Virus record (IMG/VR): IMGVR_UViG_3300031414_000013
Location: 1 to 64,000 of that record
Length of the DNA: 64,000 bases
Reading direction: 5' to 3' (one strand)
From: a virus
The notes below the pieces were generated by a model. It was not told where the DNA came from. It did not search any database and saw only the letters and a list, made by a program, of their open reading frames with translations. The position numbers were made by a program, and so were the translations under genes. This document shows, piece after piece, positions 33,696-44,698 of the stretch (its first letter is position 1; each line of letters begins with the position of its first letter).

Positions 33696-35429
33696 TTAGT
33701 TAAGACCGACGATCTTAATTGCTTCAGTGATCTCACCCAGTGGTAATGCTATTGCATTGTAGGACGTAGGAGAGGTCTGTGAGAGCATGAGGATAGACGG
33801 ATACACACGACTGGCGGTAGGAACCGGACGAGCTTCTAACCAATGTGAGGCAGCCCATTCGGCGACGGCGTCATCGTGTCCCTGTGCAGTGTTGACGATG
33901 TAGACACCCGAACGAACTTCGATAAACTGAACACGCTTTTCATCAGGACGAATCTTGACGTTATCAGTAGGCAGGTACTGGCGAATGTGCGCTGCGCTCA
34001 TCGGGTAAGCTTTAAGATAGTAATCGGTCATCTCTTTCCAGTTGGAAACTTCGCCGATAATCTCACTGTATGTCGCAACGTACTGCATTGCAGCGAGAGT
34101 TCCCTGCTTAGGGTACCCTTGGGAGGCCACACCAGTTAAGATCTTCAGAATCTCGTCTGGGAGCTTCAGTTGGGTAGTCGGGTCCATCTTAGTCTGAACC
34201 ATTGAGCCGATTAACCGCAGGCGCTTTTCTTCAGCCCACTGTTGTGCATCTACCGGGAAGAAATGCTTAACGCTGTCGTTCTCGTAAATGACCGGGTTAG
34301 CCAACGGGGTAAGGACGTGAGACTGTTTACCTAACCACTTGATAGTCGTGCCGGTTTCCATCCAGAGAGTAGCGTATGGGTTAGGGGTGAGCGTGTACTC
34401 AAGGGCACCTAACTCGAAACCTTCCTCAGTGCGGCGACGCGATACCCGGATATCGCGATACGCCTCGCCCTTAGCATTCCATTCTGATTCAATGAACGCC
34501 TGGACGGGAACAATAGGTAGTCCGTTGGCCAGGCGCGCCAGATTGCGTCGGTAGACGGCCGGGTCACCAACCTGTCGCTTGCTAACCGCAATGCTAGTCA
34601 TGCGAGAGCCGACTTCTGAGTATGTGCTGGCGTACTGACTAGGGCTGATGCCTTTGTCACTTAAGAACACAAGCAATGCATCTACATCTGTACGCGCATG
34701 GCGAGTCAAGATACCTTCGTGCATCGCCAAACGAATCTCGCAATCCATAGACCAGTTCGACCGCATGTTCTCAGTTACAAACTTCGGTGAGGTCAGTAAC
34801 ATATCGAGGTGCCACAGTTTAATGGCAAGGTCGTGCAGTGACGCAATGCGAGTAAAGTCGTCGTGCGTTTTAATGTCCTGGTTCCATGGTTGGTTCATCA
34901 ACCAGACGTTCTCAGGGAGATCGTGTTTAGCGTCCCAGCGAGGACGGTCGTCTACCAGAGTAAAGTTACCTTCACCGAATACTTCAGTCAGGTGCTCTAC
35001 CTTATCACCAGCTTTGACCGGATCTAAGATGATAGTGAAGTCGGGCCGCCAGCCCAGTTCAGCGAATGCCACTTCTGATAATGCAGCTGCGTCAGGGTGG
35101 AAACCGCGATGCGTACAGATGCCGAGACTGGAGCCGTGTTTCTTCAACCGCTCTACAGTCTGATTGAAACGGTCGTTACCTTCACGTACACGACGTTCGG
35201 ACATGAACAGTCCTTCGGCCAGCACTACGTCTAAACCGCCGTTGGTGTTAGCTGTGGTCAGATAAACACCCTCAGCTGGCAATGGGTAGCCTTTATCCGC
35301 AACGCGCTGACGCAGGGACAGGAATGTATCGTTCAGAGTGTCGTCCCAATCCAGAACGACGAAGTCCAACATGCGAGGACTGGTAAAGGTTAAATCTTTG
35401 ACGAAAGCGGGTTCTTCGATATTGTACAC
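33696..35429 (-). CDS. HAD-superfamily 5'(3')-nucleotidase-like domain fused to a large unknown C-terminal region
   Basis: LDWDDTL, CTHRG, K, LVDDRP, QPWN; start moved to GTG 35429. Confidence 0.75.
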   Translation of the reverse strand: MYNIEEPAFVKDLTFTSPRMLDFVVLDWDDTLNDTFLSLRQRVADKGYPLPAEGVYLTTANTNGGLDVVLAEGLFMSERRVREGNDRFNQTVERLKKHGSSLGICTHRGFHPDAAALSEVAFAELGWRPDFTIILDPVKAGDKVEHLTEVFGEGNFTLVDDRPRWDAKHDLPENVWLMNQPWNQDIKTHDDFTRIASLHDLAIKLWHLDMLLTSPKFVTENMRSNWSMDCEIRLAMHEGILTRHARTDVDALLVFLSDKGISPSQYASTYSEVGSRMTSIAVSKRQVGDPAVYRRNLARLANGLPIVPVQAFIESEWNAKGEAYRDIRVSRRRTEEGFELGALEYTLTPNPYATLWMETGTTIKWLGKQSHVLTPLANPVIYENDSVKHFFPVDAQQWAEEKRLRLIGSMVQTKMDPTTQLKLPDEILKILTGVASQGYPKQGTLAAMQYVATYSEIIGEVSNWKEMTDYYLKAYPMSAAHIRQYLPTDNVKIRPDEKRVQFIEVRSGVYIVNTAQGHDDAVAEWAASHWLEARPVPTASRVYPSILMLSQTSPTSYNAIALPLGEITEAIKIVGLN

Positions 35430-35430
35430 G

Positions 35431-36066
35431 TTACAGTCCTTCTGGAATAAAGTTAATAGAGTGAAGTTCCTGAACCCAGTCAGGACGCGAGCTTTCAGTA
35501 TCGCCACCAAACTTCAGGACGATGCGGTCGCTCTCCTGCATCCAGTACTTGTTGTTCAACCACACCAACACATTCGCGTCGTTGATAATCACCCGGTCGA
35601 TGATATTGTAGTTAACACGAATAGGTTCACTGATTGAAACCGCGCTTGGTTCGATATCCAACTTACCTAACGGGGAGAGAATACGTCCCAGCTTGTTCAC
35701 CAAAGAAATGACGCCGATTGTGCCAACCAGCTCAACGGTCTTTGGTATAAGTCGGAATTTAACACGAATGCGAGAATCTTTCTTACTGAAGAGAATAGCA
35801 CAACGATCGTAGGTGATCTGTTGTCCGAACTCAGACCCAACCAACTTAAACGGTCTCCGAGCTTTGAACACCAAACCATGACGATTGTTATTCGATGTTG
35901 TATAGAGACTAACGATCAGTGCAAGTCGTAATGCCGCAATCTCTTCTGTAGACAGAGTAACCTCAACATCCTGTATCTTCACTCTGAAAAACGCTTCCAC
36001 TACAAGTCCGTGTTCTTGTGCATAGTCGAGCATATGCAAATACGCAGGCTTAGCTAAATCTACCAT
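35431..36066 (-). CDS. Hypothetical protein
   Basis: 211 aa in operon. Confidence 0.7.
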   Translation of the reverse strand: MVDLAKPAYLHMLDYAQEHGLVVEAFFRVKIQDVEVTLSTEEIAALRLALIVSLYTTSNNNRHGLVFKARRPFKLVGSEFGQQITYDRCAILFSKKDSRIRVKFRLIPKTVELVGTIGVISLVNKLGRILSPLGKLDIEPSAVSISEPIRVNYNIIDRVIINDANVLVWLNNKYWMQESDRIVLKFGGDTESSRPDWVQELHSINFIPEGL

Positions 36067-36083: not shown

Positions 36084-36665
36084 TTATTTGTAAACGCCGG
36101 AGATGTGATGTTTCCGGCAGACAGACACGTAACGATCGTTGCCACCAATGACAACCTGTTCACCCTTACGTGAGACCTTACCTTCGTCATCGATGCGCAG
36201 CACCATTGTTGCTTTGCGACCACAATGACAGATGGTTTTGATTTCTTCGAGTTTGTCAGCAATAGCCAACAGACGATGACTACCTGGGAACAGTTCACCC
36301 TGGAAGTCGGTACGCAGACCATAACACATAACCGGGATGTCCAGCATGTCTACGATGTCAGACAACTGATCTACTTGGTCACGAGTCAGGAACTGTGCTT
36401 CATCTACCATGATACACGCAATGCGACGTGCATCGTTAGCATGCACGGTGTATTGGTAAATGTTAGAATTCGGCAATACCGTGATTGCTTCGTGGGTCAG
36501 GCCAATGCGTGATACTGCTTCGGGCTTCGCTGTCTCACGTGTGTCGATTGCTGGCTTGAAGATAACGACATGCATACCGCGTTCTTCGTAGTTGTATGCA
36601 GCCTGAATTAAAGCGGTAGTTTTACCACTGTTCATCTGACCGTATTTAAAATAAAGGCTAGACAT
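36084..36665 (-). CDS. tdk: Thymidine kinase
   Basis: YGQMNSGKT, VDEAQFL, YGLRTDF, CHC...GGNDRYVSVCRKH. Confidence 0.97.
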   Translation of the reverse strand: MSSLYFKYGQMNSGKTTALIQAAYNYEERGMHVVIFKPAIDTRETAKPEAVSRIGLTHEAITVLPNSNIYQYTVHANDARRIACIMVDEAQFLTRDQVDQLSDIVDMLDIPVMCYGLRTDFQGELFPGSHRLLAIADKLEEIKTICHCGRKATMVLRIDDEGKVSRKGEQVVIGGNDRYVSVCRKHHISGVYK

Positions 36666-36746: not shown

Positions 36747-37223
36747 TTAGTCGCACGGCTTCCAGTATTCGTCTGTGAAATACAACTCTGTGGGAAGTTT
36801 CTTATCCGTGAGTAACTTCTGAACCTGAACACGAACACGCTCAAGTTGTGCCATGCAATCTTCATCTTTTCCTTCAACATAGAGGATAGACATGTGCGGG
36901 GCGTAGTTGTCGTAGCTGTAACTGAAACCAGCATCGATCAACTCAAAGTGACGCTTCATGATTTTGTCTGATGAAAGCAACAGAACAACGGCTTTACCCA
37001 AGACAGCCACACCCATTACACTGGCGTGATAAATCTCAGGTGGAATCTCGATATCGTCCGTGGTTTTACTGTTACGCTCATCATACATCAGAGTGCAGTG
37101 AAGTTTCTCAATCGGAATCAGTTTCAATCCTTTAGGCAGATCCAGATCACGAATAGCCTTCAACACGTTATTGTGTGGGTTGATAATCGGCTTTAGTGCC
37201 GAGTACCCGATTTTTGTACTCAT
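36747..37223 (-). CDS. 2H phosphoesterase, Acb1 / T4 57B-like
   Basis: LHCTLMY and PHMSILY (two HxT/S motifs); start moved to 37223 (GAGGA RBS). Confidence 0.8.
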   Translation of the reverse strand: MSTKIGYSALKPIINPHNNVLKAIRDLDLPKGLKLIPIEKLHCTLMYDERNSKTTDDIEIPPEIYHASVMGVAVLGKAVVLLLSSDKIMKRHFELIDAGFSYSYDNYAPHMSILYVEGKDEDCMAQLERVRVQVQKLLTDKKLPTELYFTDEYWKPCD

Positions 37224-37252
37224 TGCTAATCCTCTACGATAAATGCATAGAA

Positions 37253-37450
37253 TTAGCGACGGTTCCCACAATACCGACTTGCGGTTAGAATCAGGTAGAT
37301 AAGGATAGGAAGCCACCCCGTTGCCAGAACAACACGTTTGATTGTCAGCCAACCGTCCGCATTGCAATAGTTACGTGAGTCACAGTGCTTCTCTAACATA
37401 CGGTCGATCAGTAAAGCCACTATTAAATAGAGAGCCAGTCCATAATACAT
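37253..37450 (-). CDS. Small membrane protein
   Basis: Two hydrophobic segments, WLP motif. Confidence 0.55.
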   Translation of the reverse strand: MYYGLALYLIVALLIDRMLEKHCDSRNYCNADGWLTIKRVVLATGWLPILIYLILTASRYCGNRR

Positions 37451-38543: not shown

Positions 38544-38981
38544 TTACAGTAAAGCGCTGGCTTCTTCACCACGCCCTAACACCAGGTGATGAACACGTGA
38601 CGACTCGATCTCGCGTACAGTACGCAAGTCCGCGTTGAATGTCACCATGTTCCTAGCAACCTGTTCGTCGCTCAACCCTTCGGCCTTCTGACGCTCGGCG
38701 TATTCAGCCATAGCTACAGACGAAGGGTAAACGACGTACACTTCAAACTTTGCATCCACCGCAGCATTCAAGGCATCCATTGTCAACGGACCACAGATCG
38801 ACATAACATCCTCTGGAATGTCAGTCAGGTCATCCGCCGACAGTGTGTCTTTCCACAGTACTTTACTGGGGTCTGACGCTTGTTCAGCCCAGCGTTTCAA
38901 TCCAACGCCCGGGTAGCCTAAAACGATACCTGTCATTGCGAAGTACCAATAGTTGACTGACGCTGATAGTTCATCAACCAC
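38544..38981 (-). CDS. Hypothetical protein, possible kinase-like P-loop remnant
   Basis: IVLGYPGVG...VVYPS; true start may be MTG. Confidence 0.55.
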   Translation of the reverse strand: MVDELSASVNYWYFAMTGIVLGYPGVGLKRWAEQASDPSKVLWKDTLSADDLTDIPEDVMSICGPLTMDALNAAVDAKFEVYVVYPSSVAMAEYAERQKAEGLSDEQVARNMVTFNADLRTVREIESSRVHHLVLGRGEEASALL

Positions 38982-39157
38982 TCACCGATCTTACCGAGGT
39001 AGCGACTTTCATCGCTGGGCAAGGAGAGAATGGCTTTTTCATCAGCACCAAAAGTGAGTGTTAAGTTAGTGGCGTCACTGGTCTTATCGTAAGTTGCTTC
39101 AGCAGCAACCAGTTCTTTCAACGCCAGGCGAGTGTGTCGCCTTCCTGACTTATCCAT
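38933..39157 (-). CDS. Small hypothetical protein
   Basis: 74 aa, RBS present. Confidence 0.6.
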   Translation of the reverse strand: MDKSGRRHTRLALKELVAAEATYDKTSDATNLTLTFGADEKAILSLPSDESRYLGKIGEWLMNYQRQSTIGTSQ

Positions 39158-39170
39158 TGACGCCCCCTAA

Positions 39171-39353
39171 TTAGATCTTACAGCCGTCGCCGCAGTCGTT
39201 ATCGCCTGCTGCCACTTCGATTGCTTCACCGCCACCAGAACGCATCTGGTCGACTTTCTCTTCTGACCCTTCCAGGTCCAGGTTGCCCAGCGCACCATCA
39301 ATGTCCAGTTCCCCAGCTGATGCTTTACCCAGAATCTCGTCTACCTTACTCAT
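39171..39353 (-). CDS. 60-aa acidic peptide ending in an NrdA-like tail
   Basis: C-terminus GDNDCGDGCKI; AAGGA RBS, overlap-coupled start. Confidence 0.7.
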   Translation of the reverse strand: MSKVDEILGKASAGELDIDGALGNLDLEGSEEKVDQMRSGGGEAIEVAAGDNDCGDGCKI

Positions 39354-39684
39354 CTTCGTTTTCCTTACAGTTAGGATTGTTAATCAACATACCATTGGCA
39401 TCTTTGAACGTGACGTCAATAGAACCATCCAATAGACCTTGTAAAGTAGCCAACACTTCCTCTGCCCGACTGTATGCAAAGAACGTGTCGCTACTAATGA
39501 AGTACATAATCTCACGAACTTGCTGGTTCGTGGCTTTCTTACCCAGCTCGGTGGCCAAGGCACGCATGGTGCGGTTCTTCGGCTTCTTACAACCAGGTTC
39601 GTTGAGTTCGCGCATCTGCGTTGAGATACTCAAGAGTGCGCTAGATAACTCACGACCCATCTGTAGTAGCGGCAGGTGTTCCAT
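39346..39684 (-). CDS. Small helical protein (family shared with 8673 and 54512)
   Basis: Start moved to 39684 (AAGGA RBS). Confidence 0.65.
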   Translation of the reverse strand: MEHLPLLQMGRELSSALLSISTQMRELNEPGCKKPKNRTMRALATELGKKATNQQVREIMYFISSDTFFAYSRAEEVLATLQGLLDGSIDVTFKDANGMLINNPNCKENEDE

Positions 39685-39982
39685 GGTCTTCCTTATATAA
39701 GTAGTCGAGCGAAAGTCCGAAGGCATTGTTTATAAAACGATTGCCTGCTTTTGGATCAGGAGGGTTCTCAGTGCTCGAATAATAGAACCCAACTTCAAGA
39801 CCCTTAGACTTGTCTATGCTCAGTTTAACTCTGCGATCCAACCGATGTACTACGTCAGCTAGAAAGTTCTCCAGAGACCGACTGACGTCGTCTACGGGGG
39901 TGTCGTACTGTGGATACGAACACACCCCAACGAGTTTGTCTTCTATGTCAGAATCGAAGAACGATAAGACTATAAAAGACAT
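39650..39982 (-). CDS. Hypothetical protein
   Basis: 110 aa, AAGGA RBS. Confidence 0.65.
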   Translation of the reverse strand: MSFIVLSFFDSDIEDKLVGVCSYPQYDTPVDDVSRSLENFLADVVHRLDRRVKLSIDKSKGLEVGFYYSSTENPPDPKAGNRFINNAFGLSLDYLYKEDHGTPAATTDGS

Positions 39983-39992
39983 TTATCGTTCC

Positions 39993-40895
39993 TTAGTTTT
40001 CCACCGCAGTTTTGCTCAGGCGAGCTTGCGCATGGTTGTAAGTATCATCGCGACCGAAGTCAATCACGCGGATGCTGGACTGCGCGATTATCGGGTACAT
40101 AGTAATGACGATCGCTATAAAATAGTACCCGGCTTCAGCGTTATGACGCACTTCAACGGTGTGAGTGTAGCCGAAGTTTTCAGCACGCAGTAATCCTGCA
40201 TAGTCGTCTACAAGCTCTTTACTCTCATGACGCAACGCAACAATCACACCGTTCCGATGGTGCTTAACCAAAACCGGCATAACGTCAGATGGCACTGCCC
40301 AAGACTGAGGTGTAAGTTCCCGGTCAAGATTGAATTCGGCCTCATCCTCAATTGGTGCCTCCAGGAAACCCATGAAGTAAAGACGCAGTTTGTTCAGAAT
40401 CTCGTACAGCACGCGAGTCTTCTCTGGAGTCTGCGCTGAGAACGTAACGCTACCGCCAGCAAAACCAACTACGATAGTGGTAGTGGCCGGACGAGGTTCT
40501 TCATCGCCGATGCGAGTCGGTTCTACCAAACTGATGCTGTAGGTGTTGGCCAGATCAAAACCGACTTCAGTAGGTACTGAGATCTGGTAGTGATAATGGT
40601 GCGGTACATTAACCACAGCAAGCACGCGACCAGTTTTAGAAATACGCAGGTTGCAAACTGACTTAAACTGCAAGAACGGGGCAAAGATCAAATCATCGAG
40701 GACGGTCTTAGCTTCAGACTTCTCGTCAATCAATTCTGCCAGTTCGTGCTCGAACACCAGGAACTCGATACCCATGGCATCCTCTACGATAGCAGTGCCC
40801 GGTTCAGTACCAAAACCGAGATAGCGAACAGACTTAGAGCAGATGCCTTCGTCTGGGTCGTTCCATTGATACCAGGTATTCTTCACCAGTTTCAT
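39993..40895 (-). CDS. Multi-domain hypothetical protein
   Basis: 300 aa, ATGA overlap. Confidence 0.75.
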   Translation of the reverse strand: MKLVKNTWYQWNDPDEGICSKSVRYLGFGTEPGTAIVEDAMGIEFLVFEHELAELIDEKSEAKTVLDDLIFAPFLQFKSVCNLRISKTGRVLAVVNVPHHYHYQISVPTEVGFDLANTYSISLVEPTRIGDEEPRPATTTIVVGFAGGSVTFSAQTPEKTRVLYEILNKLRLYFMGFLEAPIEDEAEFNLDRELTPQSWAVPSDVMPVLVKHHRNGVIVALRHESKELVDDYAGLLRAENFGYTHTVEVRHNAEAGYYFIAIVITMYPIIAQSSIRVIDFGRDDTYNHAQARLSKTAVEN

Positions 40896-41392
40896 TTGTT
40901 CTTTCCTTTCATTTTGAAGTTTGAGGCAAGAGCAGCAAGCTCGTCGAATGTACGAATAACAAACTGATGCTCTTTGGCGTCAGTTGCTTTACAGAAAAGC
41001 TTCACTGCGTCTTCCAGCGTATCCGTAAGCTCTAAGGCAGCGCGGGCATGCTCTTCTGCGGTAAGGTACTGAGATCGACAGGTCAACACACCCGGCCCGG
41101 TCATAATACGAACCTCACTGAGAAACGAATTTTCCTTATCGACGAAATAGTCACGCAAAACGCCATGCTCATCGACAACGGCAGTTATCCAGCGACTATC
41201 GTGGTTGATGTTATCGGAAACGCCGTCAGCGCGATAGTCCAGGAAGTTAGCGAACACCGGACTAGTCGGTACCAACACGCCGTACTTAGTAGTCAAAACA
41301 GCCAGCGGAATATGTGTGTACATGCCATTGGGACGAACTTCACCACACACGAAAGCAATTCGGTTGTCTCGAACCATATAAACGTTTGACAT
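40892..41392 (-). CDS. Degenerate proteasome-beta/HslV-like paralog (no N-terminal Thr)
   Basis: N-terminal strand pair and HARAALELTDTLEDAVKLF helix pair match the neighbouring gene. Confidence 0.5.
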   Translation of the reverse strand: MSNVYMVRDNRIAFVCGEVRPNGMYTHIPLAVLTTKYGVLVPTSPVFANFLDYRADGVSDNINHDSRWITAVVDEHGVLRDYFVDKENSFLSEVRIMTGPGVLTCRSQYLTAEEHARAALELTDTLEDAVKLFCKATDAKEHQFVIRTFDELAALASNFKMKGKNK

Positions 41393-41393
41393 C

Positions 41394-41915
41394 TCAACCT
41401 ACCTTAATTGCTTTCAGTTTGTTAGCGTGATACACATCTACACCACGACCAGACAGGGTGTCCATTCGGTTAGCGAATTCAACGGCCTGTTTTGGTGTAC
41501 GACCAGAGAGCATGGCGGAGGATGCGAAGGTAGCACCCGTACCAACTGTGAAGTAGTCGATGTGCTCGTCGGAGATTGAGATCAACCCTTCGATGATACT
41601 GATAAACAGTTTGCGAGTCAGGATCAGGGTGGGTTTACGCACACGTTTACTAACCGCAAGAGCGAGTTCAGTGAATCCGGTGTCAGTCAACTGACCACCT
41701 CCCGCAAAGTGGTGAGCAACCATGCGGAACAGTTTCTCTAACTCGTCAGTGTGGTTCTTACTGAGATCGATGCCAGTAGAACCGTAGACGAATGTACCGC
41801 AGTCAGACATTTTCAGCTTTGGACCATCAGCGAAATGCGTACCACCGTCGTCACCCTTGATTAGCAATTGGCGATCAGCGGCGATACATTTACTATTAAC
41901 AACAATCGTTGTCAT
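41394..41915 (-). CDS. Proteasome-beta/HslV-like Ntn hydrolase
   Basis: MTTIV...IAADRQ...K...TVGTGATFA..AM...AVEFA..D..SG. Confidence 0.8.
   Translation of the reverse strand: MTTIVVNSKCIAADRQLLIKGDDGGTHFADGPKLKMSDCGTFVYGSTGIDLSKNHTDELEKLFRMVAHHFAGGGQLTDTGFTELALAVSKRVRKPTLILTRKLFISIIEGLISISDEHIDYFTVGTGATFASSAMLSGRTPKQAVEFANRMDTLSGRGVDVYHANKLKAIKVG

Positions 41916-42327: not shown

Positions 42328-44698
<2,371 letters not shown>

What the first reader, a model, noticed from the sequence alone, without database searches (positions are those of the whole stretch)
39171..39353. 60-aa acidic peptide ending in an NrdA-like CxxxC-KI redox tail
Seen: the C-terminus is ...AGDNDCGDGCKI-stop after a flexible acidic body. 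Established: E. coli NrdA ends DDGCESGACKI, and this cysteine pair shuttles reducing equivalents from thioredoxin/glutaredoxin to the active site. No RNR gene lies in this window. Inference: a trans-acting RNR re-reduction shuttle or competitor, or the detached tail of a tail-less phage NrdA encoded elsewhere.
Basis: partly seen in the sequence, partly recalled or inferred. Interest (0 to 1): 0.72.

Follow-up and report, generated by a model that had tools for sequence, protein, structure and literature searches.

The report
Free-standing ribonucleotide reductase tail peptide
A giant bacterial virus that has no ribonucleotide reductase of its own carries a conserved gene for a 60-residue acidic, floppy peptide whose end copies the two-cysteine "recharging" tail of its host's reductase, so it probably plugs into the host's supply of DNA building blocks, though this has not been tested.

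Summary
ORF 39171-39353 (minus strand) encodes a 60-aa acidic peptide ending ...GDNDCGDGCKI.

It belongs to a conserved phage family (PHROG 10239, function unknown). Both cysteines are invariant, and the last residue is Ile in all members but one (Leu).

A profile of the family, searched against the whole E. coli K-12 chromosome and an Enterobacter genome, hits only the last 20 codons of nrdA, aligned end to end.

The "detached tail of a phage NrdA" idea is not supported. Twelve complete carrier genomes have no RNR alpha; none of those tested has class III RNR, thioredoxin or glutaredoxin.

Two carrier lineages (phiEcoM-GJ1-like phages, Serratia PCH45) encode an orphan NrdB, so they already work with host NrdA.

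The module occurs fused to three unrelated N-terminal domains. The same tail also ends phage N4 gp48, an Acb4-family (PF13876) protein, so it is a portable add-on.

Best reading (about 0.55): a free "swinging arm" acting on host class Ia RNR and its thioredoxin/glutaredoxin reductants, more likely supporting than blocking it. This function is inferred, not shown.

I found no description in the literature. Earlier notes of this scan report the same family in at least eight other genomes.

The parts
39171..39353 (-). Gene for the 60-aa acidic peptide (13 Asp+Glu against 3 Lys+Arg in the last 46 residues; its only two Cys are in the tail)
   Evidence: ORF listing and sequence. PHROG 10239, E=1.5e-4. 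Homologs in phage genomes and metagenomes. 18 synonymous against 10 non-synonymous codon changes versus L013. Charge counts.
39174..39227 (-). NrdA-like tail, residues 43-60 (EAIEVAAGDNDCGDGCKI). Cys54 is at 39192-39194, Cys58 at 39180-39182, terminal Ile60 at 39174-39176.
   Evidence: The family profile aligns this part end to end with E. coli NrdA residues 743-761. It is the only hit in two host genomes. Both Cys are invariant. 7 synonymous and 0 non-synonymous changes. The equivalent segment in the fusion P0006 has pLDDT below 50.
39273..39308 (-). Conserved acidic-hydrophobic motif, residues 16-27 (LDIDGALGNLDL). Family pattern: D-x-D-x-(A)L-x-N-hydrophobic-D/N-hydrophobic.
   Evidence: Alignments A1 and A3. 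It resembles the alpha-docking C-terminus of NrdB only weakly (E. coli DTDDLSNFQL, phage GJ1 NALGGFEL): PSSM P about 1e-3, and HMMER finds no match.
39228..39272 (-). Predicted short helix (residues 28-38) followed by the conserved GGG hinge (residues 40-42)
   Evidence: Alignment A1. Helices at the equivalent positions in the AF2 model of P0006, at low confidence.
39362..39366 (-). AAGGA ribosome-binding site, 8 nt upstream of the ATG
   Evidence: Read directly from the sequence.
39346..39726 (-). Upstream gene, probably starting at the Met at 39684 (112 aa). It forms a four-helix domain, and its stop overlaps the peptide's ATG by 8 nt. In two relatives (P0006, P0020) it is fused in frame to the peptide.
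   Evidence: In the AF2 model residues 5-85 have pLDDT about 90. No Pfam, PHROG or PDB fold assignment.
38544..39157 (-). Two downstream genes of the same operon (74 aa at 38933-39157; 145 aa at 38544-38981), syntenic with Erwinia phage pEa_SNUABM_54. Function unknown.
   Evidence: BLASTP between the neighbourhoods. No Pfam or PHROG hit.

Best explanation
The gene encodes an intrinsically disordered acidic peptide that acts as a free-standing copy of the C-terminal 'swinging arm' of the host's class Ia ribonucleotide reductase alpha subunit (NrdA).

In NrdA, the two tail cysteines take electrons from thioredoxin or glutaredoxin and re-reduce the active-site disulfide after each turnover. I propose the phage peptide uses its C-x3-C-K-I end in the same two reactions: it is reduced by host Trx1/Grx1, and it enters the active site of host NrdA. 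The conserved acidic-hydrophobic motif in its first half would give it a hold on the enzyme.

I think a supporting or surrogate-arm role is more likely than inhibition, at roughly 60:40 within this reading. The carrier phages have no RNR alpha and so depend on host alpha, and two carrier lineages even bring their own beta subunit to drive it.

Shown: the gene is real, conserved and under purifying selection. The tail is a specific look-alike of the host NrdA tail. The carrier genomes tested lack RNR alpha, Trx and Grx. The tail is portable.

Inferred: every biochemical step, namely reduction by Trx/Grx, entry into NrdA, and the sign of the effect.
For: 1. Specific resemblance. The family profile hits only the nrdA 3' end in the whole E. 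coli K-12 chromosome and in an E. hormaechei genome, end to end. It also matches NrdA 743-761 in the PDB sequence search. PCH45's peptide ends CESGACEI and Klebsiella phage Miami's ends CEGGACKI. The host tail CESGACKI is invariant in 80 Enterobacterales species.

2. Conservation. Both Cys are invariant and the last residue is Ile in all members but one (Leu). The tail shows 7 synonymous and 0 non-synonymous changes.

3. Flexible arm. The module has pLDDT below 50 in the natural fusion P0006. The last 10 residues of N4 gp48 are likewise disordered.

4. The target must be a host protein. There is no PF02867 in 12 complete carrier genomes. There is no class III RNR in the eight records tested. 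There is no Trx or Grx family hit in the window's record or the four carriers tested.

5. Link to RNR. phiEcoM-GJ1, TH23, PYps3T and Serratia PCH45 carry the module plus an orphan class Ia NrdB. That NrdB keeps the SSYLVGQID region and an alpha-docking tail, and no NrdA is present.

6. Known hosts of carriers are Enterobacterales and Aeromonas, apart from one Stenotrophomonas-labelled record that is near-identical to Klebsiella phage Miami at this locus.

7. Background. The role of the tail cysteines and their competition with nucleotides for the active-site pocket is described in PMC11903788. A solved Grx1 / NrdA-tail-peptide entry, 1QFN, exists.
Against: - No experiment or complex model supports binding to NrdA, Trx or Grx.
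- The match to NrdA covers only about 20 residues at 12-15 bits, so convergence on a small Cys-pair motif cannot be excluded.
- Phage tails vary (3 or 4 residues between the Cys; K/A/E/I/S before the last residue) while the host tail is invariant. Exact mimicry is therefore not required.
- A free peptide competes poorly with a tethered tail unless it has an anchor, and the proposed anchor is weakly supported (PSSM P about 1e-3; HMMER finds no NrdB match; PCH45's own NrdB tail does not score).
- Absence of RNR among carriers is not a strong enrichment, since only about 19% of sequenced phages encode RNR at all.
- The same tail sits on an Acb4-family sponge-like protein (N4 gp48), and the window gene lies near Acb1. 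This hints at an anti-defence role instead.
Confidence: 0.55

Rival explanations
1. The Cys-pair tail has a thiol function unrelated to RNR, such as metal binding, disulfide- or metal-mediated dimerisation, or redox sensing. Its likeness to the NrdA tail is convergent.
For: The similarity is short and low-scoring. The spacing between the Cys and the residue before the last one vary. One member adds an N-terminal CNGCGNCQC cluster that looks like a metal site (P0016). The tail is attached to four unrelated domains with no conserved Cys of their own.
Against: In two whole host genomes nothing but the NrdA tail resembles it. The similarity extends beyond the Cys to the acidic residues before them, the G-A/G before the second Cys, and the terminal K-I at the free end. 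Orphan NrdB co-occurs in two lineages.
Confidence: 0.2
2. It is an anti-defence decoy. The tail soaks up an unknown host factor, or immune effector, that acts on the NrdA tail or on thiol reductants, rather than acting on RNR itself.
For: The window gene lies 2 kb from an Acb1 anti-CBASS gene (Pfam E=1e-13). It lies 5 kb from a weak PF13876 hit. The same tail ends the Acb4-family protein N4 gp48 in 52 of 120 homologs. The protein is small, acidic and horizontally spread between unrelated phages.
Against: As far as I know, no defence system is known to target the RNR tail. No conserved anti-defence neighbour accompanies the module across lineages.
Confidence: 0.1
3. It is a competitive inhibitor of host RNR re-reduction. 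This is the inhibitory form of the main reading (its share is counted inside the 0.55 given there): the peptide blocks the NrdA active site or ties up Trx/Grx to stop host DNA synthesis.
For: The evidence of resemblance is the same as for the main reading. Small disordered inhibitors of RNR exist in yeast: Sml1 competes at R1 and blocks its regeneration, and Hug1 binds R2.
Against: Carriers lack RNR alpha and need dNTPs. Two lineages supply their own beta for host alpha, which makes blocking alpha self-defeating.
Confidence: 0.22
4. It is a C-terminal docking tail that activates or recruits another machine, for example the phage's HslV-like peptidase encoded 2 kb upstream, in the way HslU or proteasome-activator tails work.
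For: The free C-terminal hydrophobic residue is almost invariant. The upstream four-helix domain gives weak Foldseek look-alikes to the proteasome activator Bpa (E about 0.6). An HslV-family gene (PHROG 1040, E=1e-13) lies in the same operon.
Against: The fold hits are not significant. The HslV-like gene is absent from phiEcoM-GJ1 and Miami, which carry the module. Docking tails do not need two invariant Cys.
Confidence: 0.04
5. It is the detached tail of a tail-less phage NrdA encoded elsewhere in the genome.
For: The window's record is only about 36% of the genome.
Against: There is no RNR alpha in 12 complete carrier genomes, including the closest complete relative, pEa_SNUABM_54. There is none in two larger fragments of close relatives either.
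Confidence: 0.02

Closest known systems
C-terminal redox tail of class Ia RNR alpha (E. coli NrdA residues about 737-761, Cys754/Cys759; tail peptide bound to glutaredoxin 1 in PDB 1QFN)
   Same: An acidic, disordered segment that ends in a Cys pair separated by 3-4 residues, with a small G-A/G before the second Cys and K-I at the free C-terminus. The family profile aligns end to end with NrdA 743-761.
   Different: It is not attached to an RNR catalytic barrel. It stands alone or follows unrelated domains. The sequence between the Cys varies, while the host tail is invariant. It has an extra conserved N-terminal motif and a GGG hinge that NrdA lacks.
Phage N4 gp48 and relatives (PF13876, the Acb4 anti-CBASS sponge family) carrying a ...QDDNCEGGGCKI extension
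   Same: The same NrdA-like tail sits at the free, disordered C-terminus of a phage protein in a genome without RNR.
   Different: The body is a folded PF13876 domain plus a long helix, not the acidic module. There is no D-x-D..L.N.D motif and no GGG hinge. I found no published function for this tail.
Small intrinsically disordered RNR regulators of eukaryotes (Sml1, Hug1, Spd1, Dif1)
   Same: Small disordered proteins that act on RNR subunits. Sml1 is reported to interfere with regeneration of R1 by its own C-terminal Cys pair. Hug1 binds R2.
   Different: There is no sequence relation. These are cellular inhibitors without a Cys-pair tail. The phage peptide copies the tail itself and may support the enzyme rather than inhibit it.
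C-terminal alpha-docking tail of RNR beta (NrdB ...DTDDLSNFQL) and peptide inhibitors derived from it (the inhibitors are recalled from my own knowledge)
   Same: The module's first motif has the same pattern of acidic and hydrophobic residues. The NrdB terminus is the best-scoring site in E. coli and GJ1 NrdB with a motif PSSM (P about 1e-3).
   Different: In the peptide the motif is internal, not at a free C-terminus. Scores are far below those of family members. HMMER finds nothing, and PCH45's NrdB tail does not score.

Membership tests
Class Ia RNR alpha C-terminal redox tail (as a functional element) | Two cysteines 2-4 residues apart within the last ~10 residues of the chain | tested here: met
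   C54-GDG-C58-K-I-stop. Both Cys are invariant in 27 family sequences.
Class Ia RNR alpha C-terminal redox tail (as a functional element) | Sequence likeness to the host tail that is specific within the host proteome | tested here: met
   The only profile hit in the E. coli K-12 chromosome and in an E. hormaechei genome is the nrdA 3' end, aligned end to end.
Class Ia RNR alpha C-terminal redox tail (as a functional element) | Flexible, disordered segment | tested here: met
   pLDDT below 50 for the module in P0006 and for the last 10 residues of N4 gp48. The Atlas model has pLDDT 0.50.
Class Ia RNR alpha C-terminal redox tail (as a functional element) | Covalently attached to the RNR alpha catalytic barrel (PF02867) | tested here: not met
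   The peptide has no Pfam domain. There is no PF02867 in the record or in 12 complete carrier genomes. It is therefore a look-alike, not a piece of an RNR.
Class Ia RNR alpha C-terminal redox tail (as a functional element) | Is reduced by thioredoxin/glutaredoxin and reduces the active-site disulfide | not testable with these tools
   This needs biochemistry or a complex model.
PHROG 10239 (phage protein family of unknown function) | Match to the family profile | tested here: met
   E=1.5e-4, residues 14-60 against profile positions 5-47 of 47. The match is weak but full-length.
RNR beta C-terminal docking tail | Motif at the free C-terminus that fits the alpha cleft | tested here: inconclusive
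   The PSSM gives P about 1e-3 for the E. coli and GJ1 NrdB termini, but not for PCH45. HMMER finds no match. In the peptide the motif is internal.
Thioredoxin/glutaredoxin-fold redoxins | Thioredoxin fold with a CxxC active site | tested here: not met
   No Pfam hit. The peptide is disordered, and its Cys spacing is 3-4.
RiPP precursor peptide | Adjacent modifying enzyme, with a core peptide at the C-terminus | tested here: not met
   No neighbour has a recognisable enzyme family, and neighbours differ between lineages.
Sml1/Hug1-type disordered RNR regulators | Sequence homology to the family, or shown binding to an RNR subunit | not tested
   The analogy is conceptual only. No sequence comparison was run.

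The most novel reading that the evidence does not exclude
The peptide is a two-part mimic of both RNR tails. Its first motif imitates the alpha-docking tail of NrdB, and its end imitates the redox tail of NrdA. It would therefore dock on host NrdA and serve as a phage-controlled recharging arm. In some lineages it would work together with a phage-encoded NrdB, converting host alpha into a phage-run enzyme. The same 'RNR-tail tag' on the Acb4-family protein N4 gp48 would then mean that phages use this tail as a general address label for the host dNTP factory.
Probability: 0.18. Interest if true: 0.88.

Novelty: new variant of a known kind. Interest (0 to 1): 0.74.

Why it matters
How phages without their own ribonucleotide reductase secure deoxynucleotides is poorly understood.

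A conserved, portable copy of the enzyme's recharging arm would be a new way of handling a central host enzyme: by supplying or competing with one of its moving parts. The copy is found in several unrelated phage groups of enterobacteria, including the model phage N4 and the nucleus-forming phage PCH45.

It is directly testable, because E. coli RNR, Trx and Grx biochemistry is well established and N4 and E. coli are tractable. It could also yield a peptide tool for probing, or inhibiting, RNR re-reduction.

Tried and rejected
- Megablast of the region against phage genomes gave no match.
- Pfam gave nothing for the peptide or its operon neighbours.
- Single-sequence searches of the tail against PDB sequences gave nothing useful. 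Only the family profile reaches NrdA. The top hits of that search, de novo TIM barrels, come from the helical EEKVEEMR part and are spurious.
- The ESM Atlas gave no lead.
- The 902-aa hit P0015 is a coiled-coil fibre repeat and is spurious.
- Foldseek on the upstream four-helix domain found nothing significant. The weak Bpa look-alike led to a test of co-occurrence with the HslV-like gene, which is not universal.
- The search for related loci could not use alignment A1. With A2 it found only two close relatives.
- A class-wide sample of NrdA tails with a 99-aa query matched only 2 of 101 genomes and was abandoned.
- Resemblance of the first motif to the SSB C-terminus (DFDDDIPF) gave P 0.02-0.05 and was rejected.
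- 'Carriers lack RNR' cannot be used as a statistical enrichment, because only 18.7% of phages encode RNR.
- A programmed frameshift joining the upstream gene to the peptide was considered from the sequence and found implausible. The fusions in relatives are plain in-frame ORFs.
- Literature searches found no description of the family.

Full report
**What is there**

The window is the first 64 kb of a 97-kb IMG/VR virus record judged about 36% complete. Its nearest complete relative, at about 32% protein identity with conserved gene order, is the 272-kb Erwinia phage pEa_SNUABM_54. It is therefore a fragment of a new jumbo phage, probably of an enterobacterium.

The ORF at 39171-39353 lies on the minus strand inside a long, tightly packed minus-strand operon. 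It has an AAGGA site 8 nt before its ATG, and the ATG overlaps the stop of the upstream gene by 8 nt (ATGAGTAA). The same overlap occurs in pEa_SNUABM_54.

The product has 60 residues and is strongly acidic. It has only two cysteines and ends GDNDCGDGCKI.

**It is a real, conserved gene**

tblastn finds relatives in 36 phage records. These include:
- jumbo phages of Erwinia, Salmonella (SPLA10, SA002), Klebsiella (Miami group) and Serratia (PCH45);
- 52-kb Chaseviridae of E. coli and Yersinia (phiEcoM-GJ1 group), and a 53-kb Aeromonas phage (phiA050).

A later profile search added the jumbo Proteus phage 10. An exhaustive profile search of 1.84 billion representative proteins gives only 14 clusters. 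The family is PHROG 10239, of unknown function.

All members share one plan:
- a motif D-x-D-x-(A)L-x-N-hydrophobic-D/N-hydrophobic;
- a short helix;
- a GGGE hinge;
- an acidic stretch;
- C-x3/4-C-x-I at the free end.

Both Cys are invariant, and the last residue is Ile in all but one, which has Leu.

Against an 83%-identical relative the gene has 18 synonymous and 10 non-synonymous codon differences. The last 18 codons have 7 synonymous and none non-synonymous.

**The tail resembles NrdA, and nothing else in the host**

E. coli NrdA ends DDLVPSIQDDGCESGACKI. The family profile aligns its last 20 positions end to end with NrdA 743-761.

Searched in six frames against the whole E. coli K-12 chromosome, the profile gives one hit at E<=10, the last 20 codons of nrdA (E=0.105). 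In an Enterobacter hormaechei genome the only hit is again the nrdA 3' end.

The tail CESGACKI is invariant in NrdA of 80 Enterobacterales species. A more distant gammaproteobacterial NrdA ends CAGGACKL.

Phage versions range from near copies (CESGACEI in PCH45, CEGGACKI in Miami) to CGDGCKI here.

Background from the literature: the tail cysteines re-reduce the active-site pair and are themselves reduced by thioredoxins or glutaredoxins, and the tail competes with nucleotides for the active-site pocket (PMC11903788; PMC9669993). The PDB holds the 25-residue NrdA tail peptide in entry 1QFN.

**Not a piece of a phage RNR**

RNR alpha (PF02867) is absent from the window's record. It is also absent from 12 complete carrier genomes and from two larger fragments of close relatives.

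Class III RNR is absent from the eight records tested. Thioredoxin and glutaredoxin families are absent from the window's record and the four carriers tested. Any partner must therefore be host-encoded.

This absence is consistent with the reading but is not a strong enrichment, because only 18.7% of sequenced phages encode RNR. Among relatives without the module, YerA41 has RNR and pEa_SNUABM_30 does not.

**A direct link to RNR**

One of the scan's earlier notes prompted me to search for RNR beta. phiEcoM-GJ1, TH23, PYps3T and Serratia PCH45 carry the module and encode a class Ia NrdB but no NrdA. They represent two unrelated lineages.

These NrdBs keep the SSYLVGQID segment, which in E. coli NrdB contains Tyr356 (residue number from my own knowledge). 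They also keep an alpha-docking end: GJ1 has ...DTNALGGFEL and PCH45 has ...NTEDFGDFQL.

An orphan beta can only work with host alpha, so these phages already operate on host NrdA. This is the main reason I lean towards a supporting rather than an inhibitory role. The window's own lineage shows no nrdB in the parts available.

**The first motif**

The motif (here LDIDGALGNLDL; ALGGLDL in relatives) recalls the NrdB docking end (E. coli DDLSNFQL, GJ1 ALGGFEL).

A position-specific matrix built from the family ranks the NrdB terminus first within E. coli NrdB at 7-, 8- and 10-residue motif lengths. For GJ1 NrdB it ranks first at 7 and 8 residues and second at 10. P is about 1e-3 per site.

Against this:
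- the scores are far below those of family members;
- HMMER sees nothing;
- PCH45's NrdB tail does not score;
- hundreds of sites in a proteome would do as well.

I treat the 'both tails' idea as a lead. Earlier notes of this scan state it more strongly for marine phages, but that is not independent evidence.

**The module is portable**

It is fused in frame to three unrelated upstream domains:
- the homolog of the window's upstream gene (P0006 and P0020, which are 59% identical to each other);
- the SA002-type domain (P0012, P0019);
- the SPLA10-type domain (P0010, P0014).

None of the domains has conserved cysteines.

In the AF2 model of P0006 the N-terminal domain is a confident four-helix unit, and the module is disordered and does not pack on it. 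Neighbours differ between lineages. The module therefore looks like an autonomous unit that needs a free C-terminus.

**The same tail on another family**

A tblastn search with the last 33 residues of NrdA found mostly phage NrdAs. It also found the C-terminus of a 123-aa protein of N4-like phages that is 98% identical to N4 gp48.

This protein is PF13876 (E=7e-35). A 2024 preprint shows PF13876 to be the Acb4 anti-CBASS sponge family (PMC11722364; PDB 9e4w at E=9e-4).

Of its 120 best homologs, the 52 longest (119-159 aa) end in ...C[ED]GGGC[KTI]I or CEGCKI. The other 68, almost all of 86-108 aa, have no such tail.

The peptide family's profile matches this tail end to end at 12-13 bits, as it does NrdA. 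In the AF2 model the tail is the disordered tip of a long helix. The N4-like genome has no RNR alpha, beta or class III enzyme.

**What this means for function**

The tail is a conserved, selected, portable look-alike of a host enzyme's moving part. Among the carriers tested here it was found only in phages without RNR alpha.

The best-supported reading is that it engages the host RNR re-reduction relay.

The Acb4-family context suggests a rival reading, that the tail is an anti-defence decoy. So does the window's own neighbourhood: Acb1 at 36747-37367 and a weak PF13876 hit at 44351-44698. No defence system that I know of fits this, so I give it about 0.1.

A thiol or metal function unrelated to RNR remains possible, at about 0.2. 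A docking tail for the operon's HslV-like peptidase is unlikely, because that gene is missing from some carriers.

**Novelty**

Literature searches found no description.

The element it copies is well known. A free or transplanted copy in RNR-less phages is, as far as I can find, new. I therefore rate it a new variant of a known kind.

This scan has already noted the same peptide family in at least eight other genomes, with the same reading.

- the whole-genome specificity test;
- the three natural fusions;
- the N4 gp48 / Acb4-family tail.

Noticed in passing
L101:2228-2599 (Escherichia phage vB_Eco_Jura; 98% identical to phage N4 gp48, P0028): N4 gp48 and 52 of its 120 best homologs are PF13876 (Acb4 anti-CBASS sponge family) proteins with a roughly 27-residue C-terminal extension ending ...QDDNCEGGGCKI, a near copy of the NrdA redox tail. 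Shorter homologs lack it. In the AF2 model the tail is the disordered tip of a long helix.
   Followed up: partly
L103:1358-2476 (phiEcoM-GJ1) and L104:1784-2890 (Serratia phage PCH45): Orphan class Ia nrdB genes (369-374 aa, host-like docking tails) in phages with no nrdA. TH23 and PYps3T have one as well. All four phages also carry the tail peptide.
   Followed up: partly
window 36747-37367 (-): Acb1 anti-CBASS phosphodiesterase family hit (PF23474, E=1e-13, above the cut-off), 2 kb downstream of the peptide gene.
   Followed up: no
window 44351-44698 (-): Weak PF13876 (Acb4 family) hit, E=3e-4 and below the Pfam cut-off. It has no Cys tail.
   Followed up: partly
window 41394-41915 (-) and 40892-41392 (-): A gene matching PHROG 1040 'peptidase HslV family' (E=1e-13, no Pfam hit), followed by a gene of PHROG 8172 (unknown function). 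A homolog lies in the same operon position in pEa_SNUABM_54, with weak homologs in PCH45 and SPLA10.
   Followed up: partly
window 33696-35510 (-), 36084-36665 (-), 42328-44382 (-): Nucleotide and DNA metabolism genes near the peptide. One is a 604-aa protein whose N-terminal third resembles the YerA41 '(pyro)phosphatase or 5'(3')-deoxyribonucleotidase'. The others are a thymidine kinase (PF00265, E=2e-53) and a full-length NAD-dependent DNA ligase.
   Followed up: no
P0016 (metagenomic family member, 58 aa): This member has an added N-terminal cysteine cluster (CNGCGNCQC) in front of the usual module, which suggests a metal site.
   Followed up: no
L008 (Stenotrophomonas phage BUCTxx100) against L006 (Klebsiella phage Miami): The two records have the same gene coordinates and a nearly identical peptide at this locus. 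The Stenotrophomonas host label may deserve a check.
   Followed up: no
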